Below are positions 1,390 through 46,451 of a stretch of 64,000 bases of DNA, in pieces. Every line of letters begins with the position of its first letter. Positions within the stretch are counted from its first letter, which is position 1. Source of the stretch: Candidatus Dormibacteria bacterium (lineage in GTDB: Bacteria; Chloroflexota; Dormibacteria; Aeolococcales; Aeolococcaceae); contig JBMFXB010000001.1 in the NCBI GenBank assembly GCA_049964715.1, positions 34,085 through 98,084 of the forward strand, written 5' to 3'. A program made the position numbers and the translations under genes. The notes beneath the pieces were generated by a model. That model searched no databases, was not told where the DNA came from, and saw nothing but the letters and a program-made list of their open reading frames with translations.

Positions 1390-3882
1390 CTACCCTTTAC
1401 TTCTGTCTCTCCTGCTTCGTCGAAAAAGAACAAGCATGCAAGCGAAGACCAATACTAACGCAAGTATCACCACTGCACCACTCTCAACTGGAGAATATGA
1501 CTTCTTTCTATGCAGTGGTTTTCCAGCGTGCTGATTCATGGTAAGGGCAACTGCATGAGCTGGCACAAGACGAACGATAAAAGTGTACGATACTCCATCC
1601 TTGATATAGGTTCCTGCTGCAAGACACTGGCTGGCATTCCCGCAGGTCACAGAGTCCAGAGCGTCCTCCGTCGTTGGCGACTGATTGGCCACCTTTTCCG
1701 TGATCCATGAGGACCCATTCCATGCGATCAGCACATTTCTCGAATCCTGGGTTGCCTGTGTGTTTCCTACGGCATAGCAGACATTCGTGGCTGTACAAGT
1801 CACTGAACGTAGTGTCACTGCCCCTCCGGAATCAGGCAGTCCAATCTCTGCTGTCTCAAGTGTGCTACCTGTCCAGATATCTGCTACGGGCATACTTCCC
1901 GTACCTGTTTCCCGATTTCCCACTGCCATGCATGTTAGTCTCGACAGGCAGAATACTCCGTCAAAACTCCCTGAAAATGATTGATTACCTGCAATGGGAA
2001 TACTTTGCAGAGCAGAACCATTCCACTGAATGAGCACAGGCGTATTTCTAAAACTCCCCACAGCCAGGCACGTACCAGACACTACACAGGAAATGCTCAT
2101 GAGCCTACTGGTATCAGGTGCTGCATGCACCGTCCATGAAGCACCATCCCAAATGGCTACCATCCCTGTAGCAGGATTTCCTTCATCACCGACAGCAGCA
2201 CAAAATGCCAGTGTTGTACAGCTGACTGATGACAACAATCCATTCACTCCTGAAATGCCCGATGATATCGATTGCCACTTGGTACCATTCCACTGTTCAG
2301 CAAGAACGACCTGTTTCCCTGACTGATCAGTGTGTCCAACAGCCACACAATCAGCCGAATCAATGCAACTCACACCTGAAAGCGTCCATGACATCGACCC
2401 TGGAAATCCGACGCCTGAGTAACTGTTCCACCCAGCTCCATCCCCTTGCCCCACAGAAGGATTCCCATACAGAGTATTGGTTGTAGCCTCTGTATGTCCG
2501 GTTGGGTCTGTCATGTCCCCAACAAGCATGCAAAACGCTCCACTGGTACAGGAAATCCCCCGTGCAAAATGTCCCGTACGTGGAGCTGTAAATGGAGAGG
2601 ACTGTATCTCAATGGTTCCTCCTGGTTTCCATACAACTGGAGTTGCACCAATGAACACCACGCATGATGAGGTAGGACAGGCGAGTTTCCAATCGACAGG
2701 AAGGAGTGGGACAGAACCAGGATTCACTGAAGGTTGTGAAATGTTCCACTGGGATCCATTTAAGACAGCCCCAAAAAACTGTCCCAAAGCGTAGTTCCTA
2801 CTATTTGAACTTGTTCCCCCTGCTGCAGTGCAGTAATTCACTGCTGTGCACGTCACTGCATTGAGCCACAGATCACCATGCGGGTCAAGTGATGGCGATG
2901 GAACGATTCTCCAGGAGGATCCATCCCACACTTCTGCAAGTATCCGCTGGAATCCCCCGAGAATGACTGCATACGTCCCTAGGGCAAGACAATATGTTGT
3001 CGTTACACAGGATACAGACGTTATGTCGTCACCACTTGTTGTAGTCCCTGGAGTCTGTAAAAGTGTTGTCTTCATTGTTCTGCCGGGTGTCCAGGTCAGA
3101 ATGTCATTTTCCACTCCTGAACTTGTAGAACTATCAGAAACAAGAAGCATGCACCAGTTGATTCCTGCACAAGAGGCGCTGAGCATTTCAGGTGGGTTCC
3201 TCGTTCCAAAGCCTGTACCACGTGGAAGACTGAGATTGTGTCCATTGCTCCATGATGACCCGGAAAGAATGCTGTACCACGAGGCAGTACAGTCGCCTGA
3301 ACAACCCGCTGTTTCCACTGTCGATCCAAAAGCAATGCACGAGTTGCCACTGCATGAGGCATCCTCAATAGTCTGGTAAAGGCACGATGGTCCGAAGAAT
3401 GTAGTACATGACATCCCTGAAGTACAACCTGGAACTGTACTGCACTGTGCACCTACAACTGCAACTGTATTTGGGGCTGTAGCATTCCAGTGTGTACCAT
3501 TCCACACATACGAAGCATTTCCATATGCAAGACAGTACGTTGTTGATGCACAACTCACACCATTGAATTGCGGGGAGAATGTATTCGATGCCGTGAGAGT
3601 GAGTGCTGTTGACCAGGATGAGCCATTCCAGCTGAGAAGCACTGCTTCATTGTCACCAAAGCTCCCAGCAGCTATACAGAACGATGGGCCCCCACAGCTC
3701 ACATACGGAAATGCAGCAGTTGGATACTGTGCTCCTGTTGGTCCCCACTGGAAAACCCACTGCTCTGGCGTAACTGAACGGGCATCAGCATAGCTGGCAC
3801 TAGCTGAAAACAGCAGTGCTACTACAACGACCATCATCCGAAGGTATTGAAAGTTAGGCAAACGGAAGTGCAGTACATTCAT
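1390..3882 (-). CDS. Membrane-anchored surface repeat protein. Domain order: signal peptide, then ~14 tandem ~50-aa repeats (SCxSxxxCxAVG...WNGSxW), then a C-terminal TM anchor with a basic tail
   Basis: 873-aa ORF. Probable start at MNVLHF/MMVVVVALLFSASASYADA (signal peptide). Repeats seen directly, e.g. VSCASTTYCLAYG...VWNGTHW, SCVTTTYCLALG...VWDGSSW, SCTTLAFCAAVG...IWDGASW. C-terminus ends AVVILALVLVFACMLVLFRRSRRDRSKG. Confidence 0.7.
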   Translation of the reverse strand: MNVLHFRLPNFQYLRMMVVVVALLFSASASYADARSVTPEQWVFQWGPTGAQYPTAAFPYVSCGGPSFCIAAGSFGDNEAVLLSWNGSSWSTALTLTASNTFSPQFNGVSCASTTYCLAYGNASYVWNGTHWNATAPNTVAVVGAQCSTVPGCTSGMSCTTFFGPSCLYQTIEDASCSGNSCIAFGSTVETAGCSGDCTASWYSILSGSSWSNGHNLSLPRGTGFGTRNPPEMLSASCAGINWCMLLVSDSSTSSGVENDILTWTPGRTMKTTLLQTPGTTTSGDDITSVSCVTTTYCLALGTYAVILGGFQRILAEVWDGSSWRIVPSPSLDPHGDLWLNAVTCTAVNYCTAAGGTSSNSRNYALGQFFGAVLNGSQWNISQPSVNPGSVPLLPVDWKLACPTSSCVVFIGATPVVWKPGGTIEIQSSPFTAPRTGHFARGISCTSGAFCMLVGDMTDPTGHTEATTNTLYGNPSVGQGDGAGWNSYSGVGFPGSMSWTLSGVSCIDSADCVAVGHTDQSGKQVVLAEQWNGTKWQSISSGISGVNGLLSSVSCTTLAFCAAVGDEGNPATGMVAIWDGASWTVHAAPDTSRLMSISCVVSGTCLAVGSFRNTPVLIQWNGSALQSIPIAGNQSFSGSFDGVFCLSRLTCMAVGNRETGTGSMPVADIWTGSTLETAEIGLPDSGGAVTLRSVTCTATNVCYAVGNTQATQDSRNVLIAWNGSSWITEKVANQSPTTEDALDSVTCGNASQCLAAGTYIKDGVSYTFIVRLVPAHAVALTMNQHAGKPLHRKKSYSPVESGAVVILALVLVFACMLVLFRRSRRDRSKG

Positions 3883-5168
3883 GTGACATGCTCCTTTCTG
3901 GAATACAGCCAGTACCCTCCTGCGAGCAGTACACAAACGATAATTACTGCAACAACATATGACCAACTCCATGGAGCAGGAAGCCTGATGAACTCCAGCC
4001 TTTCCCTGCACGAACTACAGGAGGAAGCAACAAAAGAGCATGTACTTGGACTTGCACACGGTTCAGAAAGAGCATCAACTTGCGGAACTGTCCTAATCGT
4101 TATGATCTTCCCTGACCCAGTATCAATTGACAGAACTTGTGCTGGATGAACCGGATATTGCACGTCTGGAATAATCACAATGCATGACCCTGAATATGGA
4201 CATGTCAGCTGTGTGTCAATCTGCATATACGAAATATTTCGAAGAACTGTCATGTTCCAAGTGGATCCTGAGATAGTGGCAATGAAGGCGTATTCCCTGT
4301 CATTGAGCCCATTCTGAAATCTTGCTTCACTTGTTCCTGCAACGATGCAAAAAGAGGCTCCTGTGCAGGAGATTCCCTGATACTGGTACTCTGCGTTCTT
4401 GCTTGCTGGCTGTGCAGGTAGAACAGTCCAGCCCGATTCTGAATGTTGTACAACCACAGCATTGCCATTAATAATTCCATGCAACGTTGCTGTATCTGCT
4501 ATGGCATTGCATTCATTATTTCCTGAACACGAAACTCCGCTAAAGCTGTATCCACTGCTCAGCTTCGGAGGCGGGAGCACACTCCACTGGCTCCCATTCC
4601 ATTCTGTAGCCACAGGTTTCGTGAAAACGGTATCCCTGAAGCCTCCCTCCGCATTACCAACGGCAAGACAGTAGCTTCGTGATGTACAACTGAGATGGTT
4701 GAGGATCACGCCAAGTCCTGCAACGTGGGTATCAATATTCTTCCTCTCCCACGCAGAACCATTCCACAGCTCTGAAAATGGTGGTTTTACTCCATTGCTT
4801 CCACCAAGAGACATGCACCAGGAGGGGGAAATGCATACCACTTGGGAAAGTCCCCACGCCCCCTGTAGGTTCTCTGATAACGGCAAGGGTCTTGGGGACC
4901 ACTGTGATCCATTCCACTGGGCTGCAACTCCGAAACTGAAATAGTCTTTATTTGTGTACGTACCAACGGCCATACAAAAGGAACGGGATGTACAGGAAAT
5001 TGCTGAGTACGTTGTTTCCCCATACTGCGTCGGAACTGGAAGGGCGCCTCCCGCAGTGGATACAACTGGTGTTGCAGATCCAATTCCTGCAGTTGCTACA
5101 GTCAACACGAAAGCTAACACAATCAGGGTGACGACAAGACCGAGAAGACGAATGGGATGACGGGTCAT
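3879..5168 (-). CDS. Paralogous membrane-anchored surface repeat protein (~7 copies of the same Cys-pair/WNGSxW repeat). N-terminal TM/signal and C-terminal TM anchor
   Basis: 429 aa. N-terminus MTRHPIRLLGLVVTLIVLAFVLTVATAG. Repeats SCTSRSFCMAVG...QWNGSQW, SCTSRSYCLAVG...EWNGSQW. C-terminus YVVAVIIVCVLLAGGYWLYSRKEHVT. Its stop overlaps the start region of the upstream paralog. Confidence 0.7.
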   Translation of the reverse strand: MTRHPIRLLGLVVTLIVLAFVLTVATAGIGSATPVVSTAGGALPVPTQYGETTYSAISCTSRSFCMAVGTYTNKDYFSFGVAAQWNGSQWSPRPLPLSENLQGAWGLSQVVCISPSWCMSLGGSNGVKPPFSELWNGSAWERKNIDTHVAGLGVILNHLSCTSRSYCLAVGNAEGGFRDTVFTKPVATEWNGSQWSVLPPPKLSSGYSFSGVSCSGNNECNAIADTATLHGIINGNAVVVQHSESGWTVLPAQPASKNAEYQYQGISCTGASFCIVAGTSEARFQNGLNDREYAFIATISGSTWNMTVLRNISYMQIDTQLTCPYSGSCIVIIPDVQYPVHPAQVLSIDTGSGKIITIRTVPQVDALSEPCASPSTCSFVASSCSSCRERLEFIRLPAPWSWSYVVAVIIVCVLLAGGYWLYSRKEHVT

Positions 5169-8295: not shown

Positions 8296-8493
8296 GCAAC
8301 AATCCCCACGCTTCGCCTCCACCATCACGACTGCACCCGCACCTGTACAACGATAGCCTCCCTTGGGATGACAACTATCAGTGGGAAACCTGCTACTGGC
8401 AATTTTTCTTCCCAGCAGGTACAATGGTTCAAGGAGTCATATAGGTAGATCGACATACGGTCTCCTGTCTTACTCGCAAGAGAGGGGAATGGG

Positions 8494-9462
8494 GTGATTC
8501 GTATTCCATGGGTGCATGGGCATAAGTTACAGTCCGATGTAGATTCATCGTGGTATCAAGCGATGACGTCTGGACATGCGGATGATGTTGCGCCTGCAGC
8601 ACACAGCGCCTGGGGACCGGAGTATTGGCCACAGGAAGTGCGCGACAATCTCACAAGCTGGCCACCAACATTCAAGGAACGACAGATCATAGATGCTGTC
8701 CGTACACCGTGGAGTGGACCAGTTGTCCTTTCTGTAATGGGACGAAAGCATGGCGTGGGGAAAAGTACGATTGCACGTCTTCTGCAGCAGATATATGCCC
8801 TCCACCGCAATGACACAATCGTGCTCGTTCGACAACAAGGATTGAAGGAAAGCAGTGTTGTTCCAAGTGAAGAAACGCTTGTACAAGTAAGCGGTACACC
8901 TGCTACTCAACTTTCTTTTCCTTCAAATCCTGCAATGCGACCATCCCCGAACATGACACCTGAAGTGGACCTCATGCCCGGTACAAAACTCGCCTTTGCG
9001 GATGCTCCTGCTGATCCTTCCCGGATCCGTGAACTTCTTGCACATCTCAAAAGGCAGTACTCACTCGTCATCTGCGACATTGAGGACACGACGAATGACG
9101 ATGCTGTCTTTGCATACCTTTCTCAAAGCACACAGATTATCATGGTCGCAACTCCAAGTATTGATGGGGTGTATGCAGCCTCATCTACGCTTGACTGGCT
9201 TCGTGAACAAGGATTTCGTGAACTCAGTGATCAGGCAATAGTCTGCATTAACCAGATCCGAACAATACCTTTCAGCACACTTGTTTCCATAACGCGATAC
9301 TTCCAGCAGCATCGACGCACTGTTGTGCGTGTAGTCTGGGACAGGGCAATTGCACATGATGTCCACGTTCCAGATCTTGATGCTCTCCTGCCCTCAACAA
9401 GGACAGGTCTCCATGAGCTTGCAGCTGCTGTCGCACTTCAAAGTTGTTATTCGCATGCATAA
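8494..9462 (+). CDS. ParA/MinD/CpaE-family P-loop ATPase with ~75-aa N-terminal extension (deviant Walker A: GRKHGVGKST). First gene of the VirB4-centred cluster
   Basis: GTG start preceded by GAGAGGGG. Walker A VLSVMGRKHGVGKSTIARLL. Walker B-like SLVICDIEDTT. MinD-like C-terminal region IMVATPSIDGVYAA. Confidence 0.6.
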   Translation: MIRIPWVHGHKLQSDVDSSWYQAMTSGHADDVAPAAHSAWGPEYWPQEVRDNLTSWPPTFKERQIIDAVRTPWSGPVVLSVMGRKHGVGKSTIARLLQQIYALHRNDTIVLVRQQGLKESSVVPSEETLVQVSGTPATQLSFPSNPAMRPSPNMTPEVDLMPGTKLAFADAPADPSRIRELLAHLKRQYSLVICDIEDTTNDDAVFAYLSQSTQIIMVATPSIDGVYAASSTLDWLREQGFRELSDQAIVCINQIRTIPFSTLVSITRYFQQHRRTVVRVVWDRAIAHDVHVPDLDALLPSTRTGLHELAAAVALQSCYSHA

Positions 9463-9512
9463 TCAGGTATTACATAAGGATAGTGTTTTGTCTCGACAAG
9501 GAGGACGGGAAC

Positions 9513-9803
9513 ATGTGGGTATTGGGTGATGTGAGCTGGACACCAAATCCCAGCGCTTTGCCAGGTTTCGGAACACTGCAGGCTATTACCGATGCAGTTG
9601 GTGCCTATGCACTACTCGGATGCCTGATTGCAATTATTGGTGGTGGGGTCGCCTGGGCAGCTGGATCAAGTTCAGCAAATGCACAGGTCGCAGCAATGGG
9701 CAAGAAGACCGTTGCAGGAGCTATCATTGGAGCACTCATCATTGGTGCATCCTCGATCCTGATCAACTTCTTCTACCATACAGGCCAGACGCTGCAATCC
9801 TGA
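9513..9803 (+). CDS. Small two-TM membrane protein, pilin-like (VirB2/TrbC-like or PrgI/VirB3-like) component
   Basis: ATG at 9513 with AAGGAGGA 7 nt upstream. 96 aa with two hydrophobic helices (AVGAYALLGCLIAIIGGGVAWAA and VAGAIIGALIIGASSILINFF) separated by a short Ser/Ala loop. Position is between the ATPase and the VirB6-like gene. Confidence 0.5.
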   Translation: MWVLGDVSWTPNPSALPGFGTLQAITDAVGAYALLGCLIAIIGGGVAWAAGSSSANAQVAAMGKKTVAGAIIGALIIGASSILINFFYHTGQTLQS

Positions 9804-9838
9804 TCAACTTCTTCTACCATACAGGCCAGACGCTGCAC
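9757..9838 (+). repeat. Perfect 2 x 41-bp tandem direct repeat (tcctgatcaacttcttctaccatacaggccagacgctgca[a/c]) spanning the 3' end and stop codon of the pilin-like gene
   Basis: Copies at 9757-9797 and 9798-9838 differ only at the last base. The gene stop TGA (9801-9803) lies inside copy 2. The alternate-frame ORF 9620..9841 ends with the same peptide (ILINFFYHTGQTLH). Confidence 0.9.
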
Positions 9839-9859
9839 TAAGCCGATTTTGTAGTTGCA

Positions 9860-9893
9860 CGGGCTCCCGAATCCGGGGAGAGACGGGAGTCCG
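9860..9893 (+). promoter_or_regulatory. GC-rich stem-loop (cgggctccc...gggagtccg) in the pilin/VirB6 intergenic region. Possible attenuator or mRNA-processing hairpin
   Basis: Inverted repeat with 8 of 9 positions complementary, plus an inner ctccc/gggag stem. Located 57 nt after the pilin-like stop and ~60 nt before the GTG of the next gene. Confidence 0.35.
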
Positions 9894-9955
9894 TACCGCG
9901 TCGTTGACCTACGTTCGAGGGGTGACGAACACGTAGGAGAGAGCAGGGGGAATCA

Positions 9956-11419
9956 GTGGTGAGATTCGTTCGCTACGTCCAAGGGGCGTACGTACGCATT
10001 GCGTTTGCAATCCTTACACTCGTATGCTGCATGTCGTTCTTTTCCGGCTCAGTAGCAGCAGCGACAGTTGATCACGCCCCGACACCCATTGTTGCATCAA
10101 GTATTTTTGACACGTGTCAGATACCGGTCATTTCCCAGGCATGCAAGACTGCCTCAAGTGCATCAAGTACACTATCAAATCCAGCTGACTCTCTTGCAAG
10201 CTCCGTCGCATCATCTGTCCTAAATGCCATCGATTCCTGGGTAACGAATGCTGCAGTCTGGATCCTTGACAAGATTGTTGCACTCATCAACTCTTCAACT
10301 ACACCTAATCTCTCTGCCCCATGGTTCATGCAGCACTACAGCGTCATGGTGACTCTTGGAGCACTCGTAATGCTGCCGCTTCTCCTTCTAACTGCACTCC
10401 TCGGTGCAATCAAGGGAGATCCGTCACTTCCGCTCCGTGCTGCGTTTGTCTACGTTCCAGTTGCTTGTATTGGCACCTTTGTGTCGCTTCATGTCGTTGA
10501 TGCACTCCTGAAAATTGTGGACTGGATGTGCAGCGTTGTCCTCACAGGCATGAACTCAGATTATTCATCTTTTGTCTCAAACATCAGTACTGCACTCAAT
10601 GGGGGAAATACCCCATCCATAGCGACTCCTTTTATTGCACTCATATCAAGCTTCCTCATTGTCGTTTTTGGCTTTTTCATCTTCATCGAACTTCTCGTTC
10701 GTGAAGCAACAATTTATGCAACTGCCATCTTCATACCTCTTATCCTCACGACACTCGTATTTCCACAGGCATCTCGTATGGCAACGAAAATGTTTGAAAC
10801 ACTCATCTTCGTCATCATTTCAAAATTTGTCCTTGTTGTTGTCCTGTCAATTGGTATTGCTGCGCTCGGGGGCGGAACTACAGGAGGGTTCGCTGCTGTT
10901 CTTGCTGGTGTAGTCATAGTTATCATGACTGCCTTTACCCCAGCTGCAATCCTTGCCCTCGTTCCAACCATTGAAGGTTCAATCTCGACATTTGTCACTG
11001 CACAGACTATTGGCATTGGGGAGGGACTTGTTGCTGCAACGACAGGTGCAAATGTATACAGTGGCATACGGCGGTTCAATGAGGCTCGCATTGCCTCAAG
11101 CTCCGTCACGAGTGCCTCTGCTGGAGCAGCTGGCGGGGCTGCAGGAGGTGCTGCTGGTGCTGTTCATCTCATCGGCAGCCGTGCTGCTCAATCTGGTCAA
11201 AGTTTCCAACAAGGAGCAACCCAACACCAGCCAAACACGTCTGGTGGTGTGGGAAATTCCCAAACTCAAGGAGGTCCGACTGGCTGGCGAGGAGCCCAGC
11301 AACAGTCACCTCAACCCAGAACTACGATCGTTCCCAGTGAAACCCGAGGGGGGACAGGTCCATCGTCGAATGGTCCGTCAGTTCCACCCACTTCGGAAGG
11401 AGGTATGAGTGATGTCTGA
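9956..11419 (+). CDS. VirB6/TrbL-like polytopic inner-membrane protein. Domain order: signal peptide, periplasmic N-domain, ~6 TM helices, Gly/Ala/Gln-rich C-terminal tail
   Basis: GTG start with GGGGG RBS. Signal MSFFSGSVAAA. TM helices such as YSVMVTLGALVMLPLLLLTALLGAI and IATPFIALISSFLIVVFGFFIFIELLV. Low-complexity tail AGAAGGAAGGAAGA...QQGATQHQPNTSGG, typical of the TrbL/VirB6 architecture. Confidence 0.55.
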   Translation: MVRFVRYVQGAYVRIAFAILTLVCCMSFFSGSVAAATVDHAPTPIVASSIFDTCQIPVISQACKTASSASSTLSNPADSLASSVASSVLNAIDSWVTNAAVWILDKIVALINSSTTPNLSAPWFMQHYSVMVTLGALVMLPLLLLTALLGAIKGDPSLPLRAAFVYVPVACIGTFVSLHVVDALLKIVDWMCSVVLTGMNSDYSSFVSNISTALNGGNTPSIATPFIALISSFLIVVFGFFIFIELLVREATIYATAIFIPLILTTLVFPQASRMATKMFETLIFVIISKFVLVVVLSIGIAALGGGTTGGFAAVLAGVVIVIMTAFTPAAILALVPTIEGSISTFVTAQTIGIGEGLVAATTGANVYSGIRRFNEARIASSSVTSASAGAAGGAAGGAAGAVHLIGSRAAQSGQSFQQGATQHQPNTSGGVGNSQTQGGPTGWRGAQQQSPQPRTTIVPSETRGGTGPSSNGPSVPPTSEGGMSDV

Positions 11420-12896
11420 TGATCTTCGGTACCGTTTTGGTCCGCTGGAGCAGCGTGGATTTCTTTTTGGACTCCGAACTGCACAAGTCGGTCTCCTCTT
11501 TGGTGGTGCATTTCTCGGCGTCATTGCCATGCATGCACTGCCCGGAAGCGGTGGCATTGCTCTCGCCATGCTTTTTCTCACAGTAGCTGCTGGTTCATGC
11601 TTCTGGCATGTGAGCGGGAGAAGTGTTGACCAGTGGGTACCTGTTGGTATGCGCTGGCTCGTACGCAAGCTCAAAAGAGAGAATATCCATGTATCCCAAG
11701 CACCACTCCAGGGCCACAGCTGGAAGACACCCCTCATTCCAAAGGATGCACCTCCAAGCCTGAAATCCATCTCCATCATTGCTGCACCCGTAGCAGGCGG
11801 TGAACTTGGTGTGGTGAAAGATGCACTGTCCGGTACATACACTGCAGTTCTTGCAGTCCGTGGCCGCTCCTTTGCACTTCTTGACCAACAGGACAAGGCA
11901 CGACTTCTTTCCCAGTGGGGAGATGTCCTTACAGGACTTGCCCGAGAGGGAAGTCCCATCACACGACTCCAGTGGCTTGAACGAACCTCTGCTGACAGTG
12001 GAGAGACTGTTGCACAGTATCTCCGGGAATCCGTGAAAGGAGACTACACGTCCCCCGCTGTACGAAGCTACCTTCAGCTCATTGAAGAAGCAGGACCAGT
12101 TGCACGCCGTCATGAAACGTACCTTTCTGTGCAAATTGATGGACTCCGTGCACGACGTGCCATTCGACAGTCTGGTGGTGGCGATACTGGAGCATGCCTC
12201 GTACTAGCTAGAGAGATTTATGGCCTTGCCACACGATTACAGGCAGCAGATCTCGATGTTCTCGGCCTACTTACTCCACAGGTACTTGCTGAAACCATTC
12301 GCACTGCCTATGACCCTGCTGCAAAGAATGGGCTCGCCATGAAAAGTGTGATGTACCCAGATGAGATGGGTGTCAATCCTGCCCATGCATGGCCCATGAA
12401 GACAGTGAGTCACTGGGATCATCTCGCTTCTGACAGTGCTGTCCACGCAACGTATTGGTGTGCAGAGTGGCCCCGCACTGATGTCGGTCCCGATTTCCTT
12501 GCACCACTCCTCCTGCAAACTTGGGTGCATCGTACAGTCTCTGTAACGATGGAACCAGTCTCACCGCTGAAGGCCCAACGTGAAGTGGAGACTGCCCGTA
12601 CTGCAGACATTGCTGATGCAGAAGTACGTCAGAAGCACGGATTTATAACCACCATGCGGCGTCAACGCCAGCATGAGGGTGTACTTCGTCGTGAACTGGA
12701 GCTTGCGGATGGACATGCTGACATTCGATTCAGTGGCTACATCACAGTCACTGCTCAAAACCAGGAAGAGCTTGAAGTAGCCTGCAGCGAAGTCGAGCAA
12801 CAAGCTGGACAGTCCCGAATCGTACTCCGACGCCTCTCTGGTGAACATGACGTTGCCTTCACATATACCCTGCCTCTTGCACGAGGGCTCCGATGA
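11409..12896 (+). CDS. N-terminal half of a VirB3-VirB4-like protein: two N-terminal TM helices plus a soluble domain. Translationally coupled to the downstream ATPase half
   Basis: GTG/ATG start overlaps the upstream stop (GAAGGAGG RBS). TM1 VGLLFGGAFLGVIAMHAL and TM2 IALAMLFLTVAAGSCFW. ATGA overlap with the next ORF at 12893-12896. The size (495 aa) plus the next ORF (438 aa) approximates a fused VirB3/VirB4. Confidence 0.5.
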   Translation: MMSDDLRYRFGPLEQRGFLFGLRTAQVGLLFGGAFLGVIAMHALPGSGGIALAMLFLTVAAGSCFWHVSGRSVDQWVPVGMRWLVRKLKRENIHVSQAPLQGHSWKTPLIPKDAPPSLKSISIIAAPVAGGELGVVKDALSGTYTAVLAVRGRSFALLDQQDKARLLSQWGDVLTGLAREGSPITRLQWLERTSADSGETVAQYLRESVKGDYTSPAVRSYLQLIEEAGPVARRHETYLSVQIDGLRARRAIRQSGGGDTGACLVLAREIYGLATRLQAADLDVLGLLTPQVLAETIRTAYDPAAKNGLAMKSVMYPDEMGVNPAHAWPMKTVSHWDHLASDSAVHATYWCAEWPRTDVGPDFLAPLLLQTWVHRTVSVTMEPVSPLKAQREVETARTADIADAEVRQKHGFITTMRRQRQHEGVLRRELELADGHADIRFSGYITVTAQNQEELEVACSEVEQQAGQSRIVLRRLSGEHDVAFTYTLPLARGLR

Positions 12897-14209
12897 ACAC
12901 CCGCTCACACCAACTCGCACATCGCGTAACGACAGCACACTTCCAGGCTGTGTACCCCTTTATCTCTGAGGGAGGACTTGGCGGTCGTGGTTGCTACATC
13001 GGACAAGACCTGTTTGGTGGAGCATTCTGCTATGACCCCTGGGAACTGTATGGACGACACTTGAGTGGTCCAAACATGCTTGTCATTGGTCAGATAGGGT
13101 TCGGGAAGTCATCATTCGTAAAGAGCTATATCTACCGGCAGCTAATCTTTGGGCGTCGGGCTGTCATGCTCGATCCAAAGGGAGAGAATGGAGCACTTTG
13201 CGCTGCTGTTGGAGTTGACCCCCTCAAGCTCCGACCTGGCGGTGAAATCCGCCTCAACCCGCTTGACCCAGAAGTCGGCGATCCAAACAGGCCAGTCGAG
13301 CAGATCACCCAGGATCAGCTCGGTGTCCTGCTTGCCATCATTGCAGCAGCCCTCAATCGTCCGCTCACCCCGGAAGAGCGTGCAGCGTGCGGAGTCGCGC
13401 TCGACAGTGCAAGACAAAACCATGTGGGACAACCCACCCTTCCACATGTAGTCGAAGCACTGCTCTTCCCGGACGATGAGGCTGCTTCAAAGCTGGCAAC
13501 AACGAAGGAACGCCTTGCCACTGGCTCACGCGAAGCTTCCCTTGAGCTTCAACGACTCTGTCAGGGCGACCTCAGGGGTATGTTCGATGGTCCCACATCA
13601 GGGAATATCGATCTCACTTCCCCTCTTGTCTCTTTCGACCTGAGTTCTGTCTACCAGTCTGAGGCACTTGGCATTCTTATGGTATGCGCAGCCGCATGGC
13701 TCCAGCGAGCACTTGCACGTCAGGAGACAACAAAGCGTATCCTCGTTCTCGATGAGGCATGGGTTTGTCTGAGGAATGTCGCCATAGCCAGGTGGCTCCA
13801 GGCATCGTACAAGCTTGCTCGTGCCTATGGAGTGCAGAATATTGCCGTTGTGCATCGCCTCAGCGACCTCTCTGCAGCAGGAGCAGGTGACAGTGAACAA
13901 GTCCAGCTCGCTCGAGGGCTTCTTTCAGACTCGGAAACTCGCGTGATCTACTATCAGGCTCCTGGAGATGTTGCTGTATCAAAGGGCCTTCTGGGGCTCA
14001 CGGACAGTGAAGCAGATCTCATCTCACAACTGCGACGCGGCCAATCACTATGGAAGGTTGGCACAAGAGGATTCCTTGTGCAGCATCGACTGAGCAAGTT
14101 CGAACGAAATATCGTCGATACGGACTTCAGGATGATCGACCTGCCTGGCATGCCAGGTGAAATTGGATCCCCAGCTCATCCGGCAATCCCTCCTGCTGAA
14201 TCTGCATAG
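12893..14209 (+). CDS. VirB4/TraC/TrbE-family ATPase, C-terminal NTPase domain
   Basis: Walker A NMLVIGQIGFGKSSFVKS. VMLDPKGE motif. Walker B ILVLDEAWVCL. VVHRLSDL motif. All match VirB4-type T4SS ATPases. Confidence 0.75.
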   Translation: MNTRSHQLAHRVTTAHFQAVYPFISEGGLGGRGCYIGQDLFGGAFCYDPWELYGRHLSGPNMLVIGQIGFGKSSFVKSYIYRQLIFGRRAVMLDPKGENGALCAAVGVDPLKLRPGGEIRLNPLDPEVGDPNRPVEQITQDQLGVLLAIIAAALNRPLTPEERAACGVALDSARQNHVGQPTLPHVVEALLFPDDEAASKLATTKERLATGSREASLELQRLCQGDLRGMFDGPTSGNIDLTSPLVSFDLSSVYQSEALGILMVCAAAWLQRALARQETTKRILVLDEAWVCLRNVAIARWLQASYKLARAYGVQNIAVVHRLSDLSAAGAGDSEQVQLARGLLSDSETRVIYYQAPGDVAVSKGLLGLTDSEADLISQLRRGQSLWKVGTRGFLVQHRLSKFERNIVDTDFRMIDLPGMPGEIGSPAHPAIPPAESA

Positions 14210-14393
14210 CACAAGGCGTCCTGTCCATACGCCCAAAAAGGTGGATGATGCACATCTGCTCTCATCCAGGGAGCACAGCTCCAACGCCTCCTTCCCCCAA
14301 GTAAGGAGGACCTAATTCGTGTCCAGGTAATTCCTAGGACGCGAGAGAACAACTGTTATGACAAAGCTGAGTTGACGCTGCAGCTTTTTGTAT

Positions 14394-15596
14394 CTACGGA
14401 TCCATTCTTGTCTCTGAAGGTTGCACTGTACCCATGAGCGTTCGGGGCAGTGCAAGTGCAGGAACGACAGCTGCACAGCTTAGAGCTGCAAGCACCCAAA
14501 ATACGGACATGACATCAGAATCGTTTACAAGAAAGCCAATTACCAGAACAAGAAGTGCACCAAGACCATTTGCAAGTCCAAGTGCAATTCCTGAACCCAT
14601 GGACCTGTTTTCTGGGAAGATATCCTGCCCGATGAGGATTGTTGTCGATGCAGTGAGAAAAAGCAATGGCCCTAGGAGTGCAGCAAGAACCCAGATCCAC
14701 GCACCGTGCGCATACGCAATGGGCACGACAAGAAGTGCTATTGCAAGTGTGGATACTACAAGTACAGGACGTCTTCCAAACACATCAGCCAGATGTCCTC
14801 CAAAGAGATTTCCGACTACTCCCACGACAATAATCGTCGAGATGATTGTGGCCCCACTTACAAGACTTCCTCCATGAAGATGCCAGAGAATCGGAATAAA
14901 AGTCACCAGACCGTAGATAGTGAATGCTCGAATCGAGCTATAACTCAGGAGAAGAAGGAGTGGCCTGCTGTGTGCCTGGAAGTGAAGTACACGTCCTGAC
15001 CGTGGACGGGCGGGGAGTTGTGGTGCAAGACGGAAGACAACAATCACTGTAAGAAGTCCAGGTATGGCAATAATCCATAAATACTGAAGCCCAAGATTGG
15101 CAGCAACGAGACTTGCTGCTGTTGGCCAGATGCCTCGACCAATTTCTCCTCCGACAAGAAACAGGGATGTGAAAAGTCCATGCCTCCCCTGGAGCATGCT
15201 CCGTACTCCTGCGAGAGCTTGGGGATGAAAGAGAGCACTCCCAATCCCAATCATGAGAAGAATGACAATAAGAAGACCCAGACTGTTTGTGACACCAAGG
15301 AGACCCCCTCCCAGGGAGCTGAGGAGAAGTCCCAAGGCAACGAACCATCGTCCTCCAACACCATCAGCAATCCATCCCAGAAACGGCTGGAGAGCCTGTC
15401 CAATCATGAGGGCAGCCATAAGTACGCCTGCCATATGTACGTTTCCGTGCACTGCAACGAGAACTGCAGGGAGCACTCCTGGAAGGTAGTTCGATGCACC
15501 ATCATTGAGGAGATGTGCCCAGGTAAGTGCAAGAAGCCGAGTTCGCAGACGAACTTCTCCTCGAGCTGTATCTTCCCGTGTCACTGGATCAGTCAC
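14394..15596 (-). CDS. MFS transporter (12-TM)
   Basis: 400 aa, highly hydrophobic with a two-fold repeat. N-terminal LALTWAHLLNDGASNYLPG and MFS-like loop motifs. Confidence 0.8.
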   Translation of the reverse strand: MTDPVTREDTARGEVRLRTRLLALTWAHLLNDGASNYLPGVLPAVLVAVHGNVHMAGVLMAALMIGQALQPFLGWIADGVGGRWFVALGLLLSSLGGGLLGVTNSLGLLIVILLMIGIGSALFHPQALAGVRSMLQGRHGLFTSLFLVGGEIGRGIWPTAASLVAANLGLQYLWIIAIPGLLTVIVVFRLAPQLPARPRSGRVLHFQAHSRPLLLLLSYSSIRAFTIYGLVTFIPILWHLHGGSLVSGATIISTIIVVGVVGNLFGGHLADVFGRRPVLVVSTLAIALLVVPIAYAHGAWIWVLAALLGPLLFLTASTTILIGQDIFPENRSMGSGIALGLANGLGALLVLVIGFLVNDSDVMSVFWVLAALSCAAVVPALALPRTLMGTVQPSETRMDP

Positions 15597-19825: not shown

Positions 19826-20275
19826 TTACCTGCTTCGAGAAAAGACAAAGGGAATTGGGAGGAGGTCACTCAGTGGATGCACCTTCCAGTGTCCTTCTTC
19901 CACAAACATCACGGGGGTATCAGGGCCAGCGAATTCTGCAATGACCTGCCTGCATGCTCCACATGGTGACGTGGTAAAGGCAGTTCCATACACAGCAATG
20001 CGTATGATTCGCATTGTAGGTCCTTCGTTCACAACTGCCGAGAACACTGCAGTACGTTCTGCACACACTGTCAATCCATAACTTCCATTCTCGACATTGC
20101 ACCCACCAACAACAGCTCCCTTGGCTGTGAGTAATGCTGCACCAACTGGAAATGCAGATGCAGGAATGTATGCATGATCACTAACAGCGACAGCCTGTTC
20201 ACCCAGCTCCTTCCACATGGAGTCATCGAGTGTGGCGAGTTCGGCAAGAAGGGTATCTCTATGTGTCAGATCCAT
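19826..20275 (-). CDS. cdd: Cytidine deaminase
   Basis: Zinc-binding motifs CAERTAV and PCGACRQV. ~150 aa from MDLTHRD. Confidence 0.85.
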   Translation of the reverse strand: MDLTHRDTLLAELATLDDSMWKELGEQAVAVSDHAYIPASAFPVGAALLTAKGAVVGGCNVENGSYGLTVCAERTAVFSAVVNEGPTMRIIRIAVYGTAFTTSPCGACRQVIAEFAGPDTPVMFVEEGHWKVHPLSDLLPIPFVFSRSR

Positions 20276-21503
20276 GGACTCCGGTTTCTTGTGCTGGTAT
20301 GACTGGTACAGATGTCGGTGCAATACCGAACAGTTCCCAAAGAGAATCCACGACACCTCTCAGAGACAGTCCTTCAGCACCAACTGAAGCATGTGATCGG
20401 TCAATTCTCCCTGCTATCTCTTTAGAAGCACTCACTGTATCGAGATCATCGCGGAGGTGAGCCTTGACGTTCGCTGTGAGTTCGTTCGCTTCGTGTTGTG
20501 ATATGCGGATGTCACCATTGCACAGTTCATCAAGACGCCTGAACTCGTCTGTTATCTCCTCAAATTGTGCTGCTTCGTATTCCCAGGAGGTCCGATAATG
20601 GAACTGTGAAAGGAAGTATCGAACAGCCCGTGCTCCCTTTCGTGCACGAAGGTCACGTGCAAATACGAGGTTTCCAAGAGACTTGCTCATCTTTTCTCCC
20701 TCATAGCCAACATGTGACACATGTGCCCAGTACCGAACGAACGAGACAGCAGGCCTGCATGCCTCTGCCTGGGCTGCCTCGGATTCATGGTGGGGATAGA
20801 TGAGATCTTCTCCACCTCCATGAATGTCCACAGGTAGGCCAAGGAGAGTCTCCGCAAGTGTGGAGCACTCGATATGCCAACCTGGACGACCACGACTCCA
20901 TGGAGCATCCCAACTTTTCTCTCCAGGACCCTCAGGTTGCCAAAGTATGAAATCAAGAGGATTCCGTTTGTTTGGATCATCCGGGTTTGCCCCCCGCTCC
21001 CGTGACAGCGAGATCATTGTAGGAGTGTCGTAGTGGGAAACTTGCCCGTATCGAGGAAATGCATCAACCGAGAAGTACACCGTGCCATCGACAACGTACG
21101 CTGCACTACAAGCAACAAGCTCTGCAACCCGTGCAATCATTGCCTCAATCGCTTCCGATGCATACGGCTCATACGTGACAGGAGACATGTTCAAAGCATG
21201 GCAGTCTGCATGAAAGATCTCCATCTCTGATGCTACAAGACTATCAACAGAAACGTTCCGTTCCCGGCTCACCCGAAAGATGTCATCGTCCACATCCGTG
21301 ATGTTTCTCACACTCCTGACTGTATGTCCATCATGCTGTAGCATTCTCGTCAGTACATCAAATGTGTGGTACGTGAAGGCATGTCCAAGATGTGTTGCAG
21401 CATAAGGCGTTATGCCACAAACGTAGAGTGAGACCTCGTGACCAAGGTCGAGTTGTTGTTTTGATGAGGATGCTGTGTTGTAGAGTTCCATGTACAGCTT
21501 CAT
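20259..21503 (-). CDS. mshC: L-cysteine:1D-myo-inositol 2-amino-2-deoxy-alpha-D-glucopyranoside ligase (MshC, mycothiol ligase), a CysRS paralog lacking the anticodon-binding domain
   Basis: LYVCGITPYAATHLGHAFTYHTFDV, RGRPGWHIECS and KMSKSLGN. Length ~415 aa. These motifs match MshC rather than canonical CysRS. Confidence 0.8.
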   Translation of the reverse strand: MKLYMELYNTASSSKQQLDLGHEVSLYVCGITPYAATHLGHAFTYHTFDVLTRMLQHDGHTVRSVRNITDVDDDIFRVSRERNVSVDSLVASEMEIFHADCHALNMSPVTYEPYASEAIEAMIARVAELVACSAAYVVDGTVYFSVDAFPRYGQVSHYDTPTMISLSRERGANPDDPNKRNPLDFILWQPEGPGEKSWDAPWSRGRPGWHIECSTLAETLLGLPVDIHGGGEDLIYPHHESEAAQAEACRPAVSFVRYWAHVSHVGYEGEKMSKSLGNLVFARDLRARKGARAVRYFLSQFHYRTSWEYEAAQFEEITDEFRRLDELCNGDIRISQHEANELTANVKAHLRDDLDTVSASKEIAGRIDRSHASVGAEGLSLRGVVDSLWELFGIAPTSVPVIPAQETGVHGSDT

Positions 21504-21578
21504 TGTACGTGAGCACTCATGGGATACTAGAACGCGACACGATCTGTCAGATACTTGGCAATACGAGGGAGATACGCT

Positions 21579-22569: not shown

Positions 22570-22648
22570 GGCCCCGTGGTGTAGCCTGGTCAAACACGCC
22601 ACCCTGTCAAGGTGGAGAACGTCGGTTCAAATCCGATCGGGGTCGCCA
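22570..22648 (+). tRNA. tRNA-Asp (anticodon GTC)
   Basis: Cloverleaf read directly: acceptor GGCCCCG/CGGGGTC, anticodon loop CT-GTC-AA, T-arm GGTTCAAATCC, 3' GCCA. Confidence 0.88.
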
Positions 22649-46412: not shown

Positions 46413-46451
46413 CATGAAGGATCTTCGATCTGAACGCACCATTCCTTTCTC

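What the first reader, a model, noticed from the sequence alone, without database searches (positions are those of the whole stretch)
8494..14209. Minimal chromosomal VirB4-centred translocon without relaxase, coupling protein or VirB11
The region holds five tightly packed genes with overlapping or coupled starts (GTG/ATG overlapping the upstream stop at 11409, ATGA at 12893).

- **ATPase:** ParA/MinD/CpaE-like with a deviant Walker A (KHGVGKST).
- **Pilin-like:** a 96-aa two-TM protein resembling VirB2/TrbC.
- **VirB6/TrbL-like:** signal peptide, periplasmic domain, ~6 TM helices and a Gly/Gln-rich tail.
- **VirB4-like ATPase:** the N-terminal half carries two VirB3-like TM helices, and the C-terminal half has canonical Walker A (GQIGFGKS), the DPKGE motif and Walker B (LDEAW).

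The flanks are housekeeping genes (cysH upstream, an MFS transporter downstream). There is no relaxase, VirD4/TraG, VirB11, lytic transglycosylase, integrase, tRNA attachment site or compositional shift. The only direct repeat found is the 2 x 41-bp tandem duplication inside the cluster at 9757-9838.

This gene set (VirB4 + VirB6-like + small 2-TM protein) parallels the archaeal Ced/Ted DNA-import machinery and minimal Gram-positive MPF-FATA cores rather than a self-transmissible element. A VirB4-based DNA-uptake or protein/DNA export apparatus of this kind would be unusual for an actinobacterial chromosome.
Basis: partly seen in the sequence, partly recalled or inferred. Interest (0 to 1): 0.85.

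Follow-up and report, generated by a model that had tools for sequence, protein, structure and literature searches.

The report
Stripped-down chromosomal type IV secretion core
A soil bacterium of the little-known Dormibacteria group keeps, among its housekeeping genes, a strongly conserved pared-down copy of a DNA-transfer (conjugation) machine that has lost the parts needed to export DNA, so it has probably been put to another use.

Summary
The five genes, their motifs, the overlapping starts and the 41-bp duplication are all present. No mobility gene was found anywhere in the 64-kb window.

**What the module is:** a type IV secretion core.
- g2: VirB2/TrbC-like pilin (Pfam DUF6112).
- g3: VirB6/TrbL-like polytopic membrane protein.
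- g4 + g5: a VirB4 split at its domain boundary. g4 is the SCO6880-family protein (VirB3-like hairpin plus VirB4 N-domain); g5 is the ATPase.
- g1: a divergent ParA-like ATPase.

- The host is Candidatus Dormibacteria, not an actinobacterium.
- The module family is neither rare nor unnamed. It occurs in at least 572 stretches of species-representative genomes, mostly labelled Actinomycetota among the 80 loci kept, and on 220 actinobacterial plasmids.
- It includes Streptomyces cmdABCDEF.
- A VirD4-like coupling protein follows the ATPase in 51 of 61 informative loci. A MobF relaxase lies within 10 kb in 21 loci.

**What is particular here:** the window belongs to one clade that has lost the coupling protein, relaxase, DUF8175 and wall hydrolase. 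It keeps g2-g5 under strong purifying selection (dN/dS 0.02-0.09) and more conserved than most flanking housekeeping genes.

**Best reading:** a domesticated conjugation core running in coupling-protein-independent (pilus/translocon) mode. Its parts list matches archaeal Ted/Ced. DNA import is possible but unproven.

**Verdict:** a new variant of a known kind, of moderate interest.

The parts
8494..9462 (+). g1: divergent ParA/MinD (VirC1-like) ATPase, 322 aa. Walker A is KHGVGKST.
   Evidence: Weak NCBIfam hits to Ssd/MinD/ParA. 31 % identical over 278 aa (E 2e-23) to the ParA/CbiA-domain gene at the same position in Salsipaludibacter. Relatives carry canonical KGGVGKTT; the window's clade has KHG, KDG or KNG. 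dN/dS is 0.15 against L001. No homologue was detected in clade members L005 and L085.
9513..9803 (+). g2: DUF6112 protein, a VirB2/TrbC-like two-TM pilin, 96 aa.
   Evidence: Pfam DUF6112 E 4.5e-6, above its cutoff; T4SS_pilin E 0.003. Across 41 family members, 20 hit TrbC/VirB2 (best 3.6e-6) and 14 hit T4SS_pilin (best 1e-6). Two TM helices. dN/dS 0.088.
9756..9837 (+). Exact 2 x 41-bp tandem duplication across the stop codon of g2.
   Evidence: The 78 %-identical relative L001 has a single copy. Because 41 is not a multiple of 3, the C-terminus changes from ...QTLH* to ...QTLQS*.
9859..9894 (+). 11-bp stem-loop in the g2-g3 spacer.
   Evidence: Read. Arms ACGGGCTCCCG / CGGGAGTCCGT are kept in L001, where a G.U pair becomes A-U. 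The stem appears in the MFE fold, but the spacer as a whole is no more stable than shuffles (z -0.17). No T-run follows. Function is inferred only: possibly differential mRNA stability after the pilin gene.
9956..11419 (+). g3: VirB6/TrbL-like polytopic membrane protein, 487 aa. It has an N-terminal signal-like helix, 6 TM helices and a disordered Gly/Gln/Pro-rich tail.
   Evidence: No direct Pfam/NCBIfam hit. 6 of 26 sequences in the g3 alignment hit Pfam TrbL (best 3.8e-6). The L005 orthologue hits TrbL at 2.5e-4. A JGI homologue is named TrbL and others carry PF19590, listed as TrbL_3. AF2 model pLDDT 69; its top five PDB Foldseek hits are all R388 TrwI/VirB6 (E 0.01-0.04, prob 0.96-1.0). 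dN/dS 0.034.
11409..12896 (+). g4: SCO6880-family protein, a VirB3-like TM hairpin fused to the VirB4 N-terminal domain, 494-495 aa.
   Evidence: NCBIfam NF042935 E 5.5e-103. Residues 295-491 align to positions 171-362 of the 752-position CD1110 VirB4 profile. AF2 model pLDDT 79; Foldseek against R388 TrwK/VirB4 gives E 1e-11 over about 410 columns. Two TM helices at about 27-68. dN/dS 0.023.
12893..14209 (+). g5: VirB4 C-terminal ATPase domain, 438 aa, with intact Walker A, DPKGE and Walker B motifs.
   Evidence: PDB 4AG5 (VirB4 C-domain) E 1.8e-19. Residues 55-391 align to positions 411-729 of the CD1110 VirB4 profile. Also hits TraC and VirB4_CagE profiles and Pfam AAA_10 and TraG P-loop. 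dN/dS 0.032 and 95 % aa identity to L001.

Best explanation
**What it is.** This is a domesticated, reduced type IV secretion core in a Candidatus Dormibacteria chromosome. It descends from the conjugation apparatus common in Actinomycetota (the SCO6880/DUF6112 or cmd-type module).

**What was kept and what was lost.**
- The ancestral gene order is: [wall hydrolase] - ParA - VirB2-like pilin - DUF8175 - VirB6-like - VirB3/VirB4-N - VirB4-C ATPase - VirD4-like coupling protein, often with a MobF relaxase nearby.
- The window's clade kept only the pilin, the VirB6-like protein and the split VirB3-VirB4. A degenerate ParA is kept in some members.
- It lost the coupling protein, relaxase, DUF8175 and hydrolase.
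- The remaining genes are functional and strongly constrained.

**How it most likely works (inferred).**
1. The g4+g5 pair forms the VirB4 motor.
2. The VirB3-like hairpin anchors the motor at the membrane on a VirB6-like platform.
3. The motor extracts DUF6112 pilin from the membrane to build a filament or conduit.
4. Without a coupling protein it cannot recruit a relaxase-bound DNA for export. It therefore stays in the default pilus/translocon mode, serving cell contact and possibly DNA import as in archaeal Ced/Ted.

**My probabilities.**
- T4SS-derived module of the SCO6880 family: about 0.95.
- Functional, and not a self-transmissible element at this locus: about 0.75.
- Pilus/translocon mode without a coupling protein: about 0.45.
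- DNA import: about 0.2.
For: **Shown: component identities.**
- g5 is a VirB4 C-domain.
- g4 is a VirB4 N-domain plus a TM hairpin.
- Together g4 and g5 cover positions 171-729 of one 752-position VirB4 profile, with the break at the domain linker.
- g3 is VirB6/TrbL-like.
- g2 is VirB2/TrbC-like at family level.

**Shown: ancestry.**
- The same gene order sits on an Iamia plasmid together with a 'TraM recognition' coupling protein and a MobF relaxase.
- 51 of 61 loci with at least 2.5 kb downstream of the ATPase carry a coupling protein after it. 21 loci carry MobF within 10 kb.
- In an NJ tree of g4, the window, L001-3, L005 and L085-87 form one clade nested inside that radiation. None of them has a coupling protein, MobF or DUF8175 (contexts).

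**Shown: function is retained.**
- Against L001, where synonymous sites are largely saturated (dS mostly >1), dN/dS is 0.023-0.034 for g3-g5.
- Their amino-acid identity is 92-95 %. Flanking cysN, cysH, MFS, udp, pyrimidine phosphorylase and cysS/mshC are 76-89 % identical (cysD 91.5 %).

**Shown: not a mobile island here.**
- Synteny with L001 runs through the housekeeping flanks.
- There is no mobility gene in 64 kb, no nearby tRNA and no bracketing repeats.

**From the literature.**
- VirD4 is required only for substrate transfer, and its deletion gives hyperpiliation (PMC13463995).
- Ced/Ted are domesticated VirB2 + VirB6 + VirB4 sets, with a ParA/VirC1-like gene in Ted, and they import DNA (PMC9905601).
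- Patescibacteria carry chromosomal relaxase-less T4SSs (PMC12102498).
- Deleting cmdA, the first gene of the Streptomyces cmd operon, gave no phenotype, while deleting cmdB-F did (PMC2782261). Whether cmdA is the coupling protein was not tested.
Against: - Only 64 kb of the genome is visible, with 8.5 kb upstream of the module. A coupling protein or relaxase could be encoded elsewhere; in Patescibacteria most coupling-protein genes lie far from virB4.
- No wall hydrolase or VirB8-like gene is present, so it is unclear how a filament would cross the cell wall.
- Conjugative pili have not been seen in monoderm bacteria (PMC9905601).
- The g3 and g2 assignments rest on weak individual scores.
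- The ParA Walker A is degenerate, and no ParA homologue was detected in two clade members.
- No experiment exists for any Dormibacteria.
- The tree is a quick NJ tree without support values.
Confidence: 0.6

Rival explanations
1. The module is an ordinary conjugative element (ICE or integrated plasmid). Its coupling protein, relaxase, hydrolase and integrase lie outside the module or the window and act in trans.
For: The wider family is clearly conjugative: coupling protein in 51 of 61 loci, MobF in 21 loci, and 220 plasmids. Coupling-protein genes can lie far from virB4 (PMC12102498). Only 8.5 kb is visible upstream.
Against: No mobility gene was found in 64 kb. Every clade locus with enough downstream DNA (window, L001/L002, L005, L085, L086) lacks a coupling protein, and none of the clade shows MobF in the available flank. 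The module sits in conserved housekeeping synteny in two genomes that differ by 22 % at nucleotide level. There is no tRNA, att-like repeat or GC shift.
Confidence: 0.15
2. It is the Dormibacteria counterpart of Streptomyces cmdABCDEF: a membrane complex acting in cell division, chromosome segregation or envelope development rather than in transfer between cells.
For: g4 belongs to the SCO6880 family. SCO6878, SCO6880 and SCO6881 are reported to resemble cmdB, cmdC and cmdD. cmd mutants show defective sporulation and chromosome segregation and do not affect plasmid transfer (PMC2782261). A ParA/MinD-like gene is attached to the module.
Against: The cmd mechanism is itself unknown, so this names a phenotype rather than a mechanism. 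cmd has six genes and the window lacks two of them. Orthology to cmd as opposed to the plasmid-type paralogues was not tested. It does not exclude the main explanation.
Confidence: 0.15
3. It is a coupling-protein-independent protein or toxin export system, comparable to Bordetella Ptl or Brucella VirB, for which no coupling protein is known.
For: T4SSs without a coupling protein exist (PMC12102498). Two fast-evolving secreted Cys-rich repeat proteins lie 3-7 kb upstream.
Against: No effector-like or toxin-immunity genes are conserved next to the module across the clade. Ptl-type export relies on an outer-membrane channel that has no counterpart here.
Confidence: 0.07
4. It is a decaying remnant of a former conjugative element with no present function.
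For: Loss of four ancestral components. A degenerate ParA Walker A. A 41-bp duplication at the end of g2.
Against: All five ORFs are intact. dN/dS is 0.02-0.09 for g2-g5, and they are more conserved than most flanking housekeeping genes. The ATPase motifs are intact. The same reduced set persists across relatives only 55-60 % identical. The duplication alters only the last one or two residues.
Confidence: 0.03

Closest known systems
Actinobacterial SCO6880/DUF6112-type conjugative T4SS (for example Iamia sp. plasmid NZ_CP050950; the related Streptomyces SLP2 transfer genes SLP2.21-23)
   Same: Same gene order and homologous proteins: ParA-like, DUF6112, VirB6-like 'type IV secretion system protein', SCO6880-family protein and VirB4-C ATPase. 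The VirB4 split is shared.
   Different: The plasmid and most genomic copies add a DUF8175-type gene, a VirD4-like coupling protein, a wall hydrolase and often a MobF relaxase. The window has none of these. Plasmid g4 homologues are only 30-39 % identical, against 42-60 % for the genomic copies.
Streptomyces coelicolor cmdABCDEF (SCO4126-4131)
   Same: A chromosomal, co-transcribed cluster containing a VirB4-like ATPase (cmdB), an SCO6880-like protein (cmdC) and an SCO6881-like membrane protein (cmdD). It is not needed for plasmid transfer and has a cellular phenotype (PMC2782261).
   Different: cmd has six genes; the window has four of the presumed equivalents plus ParA. The host is a different phylum, and no developmental biology is known for Dormibacteria. 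The mapping of cmdA to the coupling protein and cmdE/F to DUF8175/DUF6112 is my inference from gene order and was not tested.
Archaeal Ced and Ted DNA-import systems
   Same: Domesticated, chromosomal, relaxase-less and coupling-protein-less sets of a VirB2-like pilin, a VirB6-like channel and a VirB4-like ATPase. Ted loci also carry a VirC1/ParA-like gene (PMC9905601). This is the same parts list as g1-g5.
   Different: No sequence-level relationship was tested or claimed. The window's module is clearly derived from the actinobacterial bacterial lineage. DNA import is shown for Ced and untested here.
Patescibacteria (CPR) chromosomal T4SS
   Same: MPF-FATA-related, chromosomal, mostly without a relaxase, with VirB2-like pilins, and proposed to be co-opted. 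It occurs in a lineage placed next to Chloroflexota and Dormibacterota (PMC12102498).
   Different: CPR genomes usually encode coupling-protein homologues elsewhere and additional MPF-FATA parts. No phylogenetic link to the window's VirB4 was tested.
T4SSs without a coupling protein in diderm bacteria (Bordetella Ptl and Brucella VirB, cited in PMC12102498; Helicobacter ComB DNA uptake, from my own knowledge)
   Same: They work without a VirD4 coupling protein. ComB takes up DNA.
   Different: They are full diderm machines with VirB7-10 outer-membrane complexes. They resemble the window's module in principle only.

Membership tests
Type IV secretion system core (VirB/MPF) | VirB4-family ATPase with Walker A/B | tested here: met
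   g5: PDB 4AG5 E 1.8e-19; VirB4, TraC and CD1110 profiles; motifs GQIGFGKS and LDEAW present.
Type IV secretion system core (VirB/MPF) | VirB4 N-terminal domain | tested here: met
   The g4 model matches R388 TrwK/VirB4 at Foldseek E 1e-11 over about 410 columns. g4 residues 295-491 align to positions 171-362 of a VirB4 profile. It is encoded as a separate gene, as in every relative.
Type IV secretion system core (VirB/MPF) | VirB3-like two-TM membrane anchor | tested here: inconclusive
   There is a two-TM hairpin at g4 residues about 27-68, and one plasmid homologue is annotated 'PrgI family protein'. No VirB3 profile hit was obtained.
Type IV secretion system core (VirB/MPF) | VirB6/TrbL polytopic channel protein | tested here: met
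   6 of 26 sequences in the g3 alignment hit Pfam TrbL. The L005 orthologue hits at 2.5e-4. The top five PDB fold hits are TrwI/VirB6. g3 has 6 TM helices. The individual scores are weak.
Type IV secretion system core (VirB/MPF) | VirB2/TrbC-type pilin | tested here: met
   Met at family level: 20 of 41 DUF6112 members hit TrbC/VirB2 (best 3.6e-6) and 14 of 41 hit T4SS_pilin. The window protein alone gives 0.003 and 0.044.
Conjugative element (plasmid/ICE) | Type IV coupling protein (VirD4/TraG) | tested here: not met
   tblastn with two coupling-protein seeds found nothing in the window. Pfam/NCBIfam scans of all distinct ORFs of at least 150 aa found none. Applies to the 64-kb window only.
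Conjugative element (plasmid/ICE) | Relaxase | tested here: not met
   No MobF by tblastn. No relaxase domain in any scanned ORF. Applies to the window only.
Conjugative element (plasmid/ICE) | Integrase, attachment repeats or tRNA target, compositional island | tested here: not met
   No integrase (same scans). tRNAs only at 22570 and 55538. No bracketing repeats. GC is flat. Flanks are syntenic with L001.
Gram-positive-type T4SS (MPF-FATA-like) | VirB1-like wall hydrolase and VirB8-like protein | tested here: not met
   No SLT, DD-carboxypeptidase or DUF8175 homologue by tblastn. No such Pfam domain in the window. Whether DUF8175 is VirB8-like was not tested.
NCBIfam SCO6880 family (NF042935) | Full-length profile match above the curated cutoff | tested here: met
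   345 bits against a cutoff of 60, covering positions 3-476 of 477.
Streptomyces cmdABCDEF | Six-gene operon with cmdB ATPase, cmdC (SCO6880-like) and cmdD; developmental phenotype | tested here: inconclusive
   Three homologous classes are present. Two of the presumed six are absent. Orthology and phenotype cannot be tested with these tools.
Ced/Ted DNA-import systems | Chromosomal VirB2-like + VirB6-like + VirB4-like set without relaxase or coupling protein | tested here: met
   The composition matches (compared with PMC9905601). This is resemblance in parts list, not homology-based membership.
Ced/Ted DNA-import systems | Imports cellular DNA | not testable with these tools
   Needs genetics in a cultivable carrier.
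ParA/MinD ATPases | Deviant Walker A KGGxGK[ST] and ParA fold | tested here: inconclusive
   Only sub-threshold NCBIfam hits. 31 % identity to a relative that carries the CbiA and ParA domains. The signature Lys is kept, but the first Gly of the KGG triplet is replaced (KHG; KDG and KNG in clade relatives).

The most novel reading that the evidence does not exclude
A bacterial counterpart of the archaeal Ced/Ted systems. A conjugation apparatus was captured by the Dormibacteria chromosome and stripped of coupling protein, relaxase and wall hydrolase. Pilin, VirB6-like channel, split VirB3-VirB4 motor and a ParA-like positioning ATPase were retained for import or exchange of cellular DNA between cells. 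This would be the first such domesticated DNA-exchange T4SS in a free-living monoderm-type bacterium.
Probability: 0.2. Interest if true: 0.8.

Novelty: new variant of a known kind. Interest (0 to 1): 0.5.

Why it matters
Conjugation machines are usually the property of mobile elements. Known cases of host capture are few: archaeal Ced/Ted, the Patescibacteria T4SS, Helicobacter ComB and Streptomyces cmd.

This locus shows a clean, clade-wide reduction of a widespread actinobacterial-type conjugation module to four or five genes. The reduced set is more conserved than most neighbouring housekeeping genes. It sits in an uncultured soil phylum (Dormibacterota).

It gives a minimal natural parts list for what a VirB4-VirB6-VirB2 core can do without a coupling protein. 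It also links to the unexplained cmd phenotype in Streptomyces. If the module mediates DNA import or cell contact, it would bear on gene flow and survival in nutrient-poor soils.

Tried and rejected
- **Exact-sequence look-ups** of g4 and g5 found no record. The window genome itself is not in the collection. For g4 the listed GTG start may also be one codon too long.
- **Sequence-profile searches of the PDB** with the g4 family and the DUF6112 family gave nothing useful. Only the fold comparison revealed the VirB4 N-domain.
- **Direct Pfam/NCBIfam scans of g3** gave no hit. The assignment needed homologues and a model.
- **Promoter and terminator scan** was not above the shuffle expectation, so no operon boundaries are claimed.
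- **The g2-g3 spacer as an RNA element.** It is no more stable than shuffles; only one local hairpin is conserved.
- **Attachment-site search.** Only chance-level repeats were found.
- **Accessory genes.** Genes next to the module in clade relatives were compared with the window: a roughly 100-aa protein plus response regulator in L086/L087; HRDC, TrbL_4 and M23 in L005; and two small membrane proteins in L001. None is shared with the window.
- **Literature searches.** I found no description of a T4SS in Dormibacterota and no paper on an EccE-VirB4 relationship.
- **'Decaying remnant' reading** was rejected on dN/dS.
- **'Actinobacterial host'** was rejected on the names attached to close relatives.

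Full report
**1. The observation**

The region holds five + strand ORFs.
- g1: 8494-9462.
- g2: ORF from 9444.
- g3: 9956-11419.
- g4: 11409-12896.
- g5: 12893-14209.

g3/g4 overlap (GTGATGTCTGA; the ATG at 11412 is the likelier start) and g4/g5 overlap as ATGA. The gaps are 50 nt between g1 and g2 and 152 nt between g2 and g3.

All quoted motifs are present. Hydropathy gives 2 TM helices in g2, a signal-like helix plus 6 TM in g3, 2 TM in g4 and none in g1 or g5. The tandem duplication is exact, 2 x 41 bp, at 9756-9837.

**2. What the proteins are**

- **g5** matches the solved VirB4 C-terminal domain 4AG5 (E 1.8e-19). It aligns to positions 411-729 of the 752-position CD1110 VirB4 profile.
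- **g4** is a full-length member of NCBIfam SCO6880_fam (E 5.5e-103). Its residues 295-491 align to positions 171-362 of the same VirB4 profile. An AlphaFold2 model (pLDDT 79) matches R388 TrwK/VirB4 chains at Foldseek E 1e-11.
- **g4 + g5** are therefore one VirB4 split at the linker between its two domains. A VirB3-like two-TM hairpin sits at the N-terminus of g4. The split is present in the relatives whose gene calls I inspected, and g4 and g5 always map as separate adjacent hits.
- **g3** has no direct family hit. However, 6 of 26 sequences in its alignment hit Pfam TrbL and the L005 orthologue hits TrbL at 2.5e-4. The five best PDB matches of its model are all TrwI/VirB6.
- **g2** passes the DUF6112 threshold. 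Of 41 family members, 20 also hit TrbC/VirB2 and 14 hit T4SS_pilin.
- **g1** is a divergent ParA/MinD-type ATPase. It is 31 % identical to the ParA/CbiA-domain gene at the same position in Salsipaludibacter.

**3. The host is not an actinobacterium**

- The only close relative of g4 (94 %) sits in a cluster that holds an NCBI protein named 'SCO6880 family protein [Candidatus Dormibacteria bacterium]'.
- The closest species-genome loci are a MAG called B_DOR_08 and a Candidatus Dormiibacterota MAG.
- Most named neighbours of the window's PurB are Candidatus Dormibacteraeota, and none is actinobacterial.
- Candidatus Dormibacteria is a class of the phylum Candidatus Dormiibacterota.

**4. The module family is large, named and ancestrally conjugative**

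Among the 80 loci kept, most are labelled Actinomycetota: Acidimicrobiia, Thermoleophilia, Nitriliruptoria, Actinomycetes.
- 220 actinobacterial plasmids carry a homologue at 30-39 % identity.
- On an Iamia plasmid the order is: DD-carboxypeptidase, AAA/ParA, DUF6112, hypothetical, 'type IV secretion system protein', SCO6880 family, ATP-binding protein, HTH, TraM-recognition coupling protein, and further on a MobF relaxase.
- Mapping the components on 88 loci gives the canonical order [hydrolase] ParA - DUF6112 - DUF8175 - g3 - g4 - g5 - coupling protein.
- The coupling protein is present in 51 of 61 loci that have at least 2.5 kb downstream of the ATPase. MobF lies within 10 kb in 21 loci.
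- The family includes Streptomyces cmdABCDEF. SCO6878, SCO6880 and SCO6881 are reported to resemble cmdB, cmdC and cmdD. The operon affects sporulation and chromosome segregation and does not affect plasmid transfer. The related SLP2 genes are needed for conjugal transfer (PMC2782261).
- A Frankia context with the same annotations is listed in a 2026 preprint.

**5. What is special about the window**

- In a neighbour-joining tree of g4, the window, L001-L003, L005 and L085-L087 form one clade. It is nested inside the radiation that carries coupling proteins.
- No member of the clade shows a coupling protein, MobF or DUF8175 in the DNA available (contexts); L003 and L087 hold too little downstream DNA to judge.
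- tblastn of those proteins against the whole window is negative.
- Scans of all distinct ORFs of at least 150 aa show only housekeeping and surface-protein genes.
- There is no nearby tRNA, no bracketing repeat and no compositional break.
- The module lies at the same place (cysH | module | MFS) in L001, whose DNA is 78 % identical.
- L005 and L087 share another upstream context (peptidase S9 - PIG-L).

**6. It is functional**

| Gene(s), window vs L001 | dN/dS | aa identity |
|---|---|---|
| g3 | 0.034 | 92.4 % |
| g4 | 0.023 | 93.7 % |
| g5 | 0.032 | 94.9 % |
| g2 | 0.088 | 94.7 % |
| g1 | 0.151 | 74.8 % |
| flanking cysN | 0.114 | 76.4 % |
| flanking cysH | 0.075 | 79.3 % |
| flanking MFS | 0.080 | 81.1 % |
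| flanking pyrimidine phosphorylase | 0.044 | 87.6 % |

- dS is above 1 for g1 and g3-g5 (0.31 for g2), so synonymous sites are largely saturated.
- The flanking genes as a whole are 76-91 % identical.
- A decaying remnant is therefore excluded.
- g1 is the weak link. It evolves faster, and its Walker A has lost the first Gly of the KGG triplet in the whole clade (KHG, KDG or KNG against KGG in relatives).
- No ParA homologue was detected in L005 or L085.

**7. Mechanism**

Shown:
- The parts are a VirB2-like pilin, a VirB6-like platform and a split VirB3-VirB4 motor, with or without ParA.
- The export-specific parts are missing.

Inferred:
- Coupling proteins are needed only for substrate transfer, and T4SSs without them default to pilus production (PMC13463995).
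- The core therefore most likely assembles a pilin-based filament or translocon.
- The parts list equals that of the archaeal Ted system, including a VirC1/ParA-like gene, and resembles Ced. Both are domesticated conjugation machines, and Ced imports DNA (PMC9905601).
- Patescibacteria provide a bacterial precedent for a chromosomal, relaxase-less, co-opted T4SS (PMC12102498).
- DNA import is thus a reasonable but untested reading. I give it about 0.2.

Open problems:
- No wall hydrolase or VirB8-like gene is present.
- A coupling protein may be encoded elsewhere in the genome.
- There are no experimental data for this phylum.

**8. Verdict**

It is wrong about the host, and it overstates rarity.

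This is a new, reduced variant of a known and very common module. It is conserved across a Dormibacteria clade and has probably been exapted. Interest is moderate (0.5). It would be high only if DNA import or another new function were demonstrated.

Noticed in passing
window 9756-9837; L001 8385-8425: The exact 41-bp tandem duplication spans the g2 stop codon. It is single-copy in the closest relative. It shifts the frame only at the last codon (QTLH* becomes QTLQS*) and leaves a second copy in the 3' untranslated region. It is either a very recent event or an assembly artefact.
   Followed up: yes
L018 1749-4376; L048 11482-14106; L019 12327-14887: Some actinobacterial g5 (VirB4-C ATPase) homologues are interrupted by intein-like insertions. 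L018 and L048 read through as one frame of about 875 codons. Two insertion sites lie next to the P-loop: GKSSLVK|C...VVVHN|T in L018/L048 and GKGK|A...PTHN|S in L019.
   Followed up: partly
window 11409-12896 (g4 residues 232-350): g4 passes the Pfam EccE threshold (type VII secretion membrane component, E 6.5e-8). Its model weakly matches EccE chains of the ESX-5 and ESX-3 structures (7b9f_E E 7e-3; 6sgz_D). EccE has the same layout, two TM helices followed by a cytoplasmic domain. This hints at a relationship between EccE and the VirB3-VirB4 N-domain. I found no paper on it.
   Followed up: partly
window 1390-4011 and 3879-5168, minus strand: Two proteins of 873 and 429 aa have a signal peptide, many Cys-rich 'WNGSxW ... 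SVSC ... C.AVG' repeats and a C-terminal TM anchor. They have no Pfam or NCBIfam hit. They evolve fast: 57 % and 51 % identity to L001, where g4 is 94 % identical.
   Followed up: partly
window 14150-14445 vs L001 12739-14098: There is an indel directly after g5. L001 and L002 carry two small multi-TM protein genes (151 and 199 aa, no family hit) between the ATPase gene and the MFS gene. The window has 296 bp there instead.
   Followed up: partly
window 9859-9894; L001 about 8446-8480: An 11-bp stem-loop lies after the pilin-like gene. It is conserved in L001 with a G.U to A-U change. No T-run follows it. It may set the pilin-to-machinery expression ratio.
   Followed up: partly
L015 11437-16877; L037 11428-17040: In two actinobacterial loci about 5.5 kb is inserted between the g4 and g5 homologues, separating the two halves of the split VirB4.
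   Followed up: no
L065 and L082: Two separate complete copies of the module, each with a coupling protein, lie on two contigs of one MAG labelled Dehalococcoidia. This fits mobile copies in that genome, or a binning problem.
   Followed up: no
L005 9413-12304: In the closest species-genome relative, the ATPase gene is followed by genes for an HRDC-domain protein, a TrbL_4-family protein, an M23 peptidase and an SSB. This is a possible accessory set with nucleic-acid and wall-hydrolase functions. It is absent from the window.
   Followed up: partly
window 46452-50288 and 44841-46442, minus strand: A 1278-aa protein carries 12 Big_3_5 Ig-like repeats next to a 533-aa relative. The local reversal of GC skew at 45-50 kb coincides with these genes.
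   Followed up: no
window 20259-21707, minus strand: This cysteinyl-tRNA-synthetase-like gene scores below the curated cutoffs of both MshC (354 against 485) and CysS (327 against 340). PIG-L (MshB-like) deacetylases flank the module in L005 and L087. Such actinobacteria-like thiol-pathway genes may be why the host looked actinobacterial.
   Followed up: no
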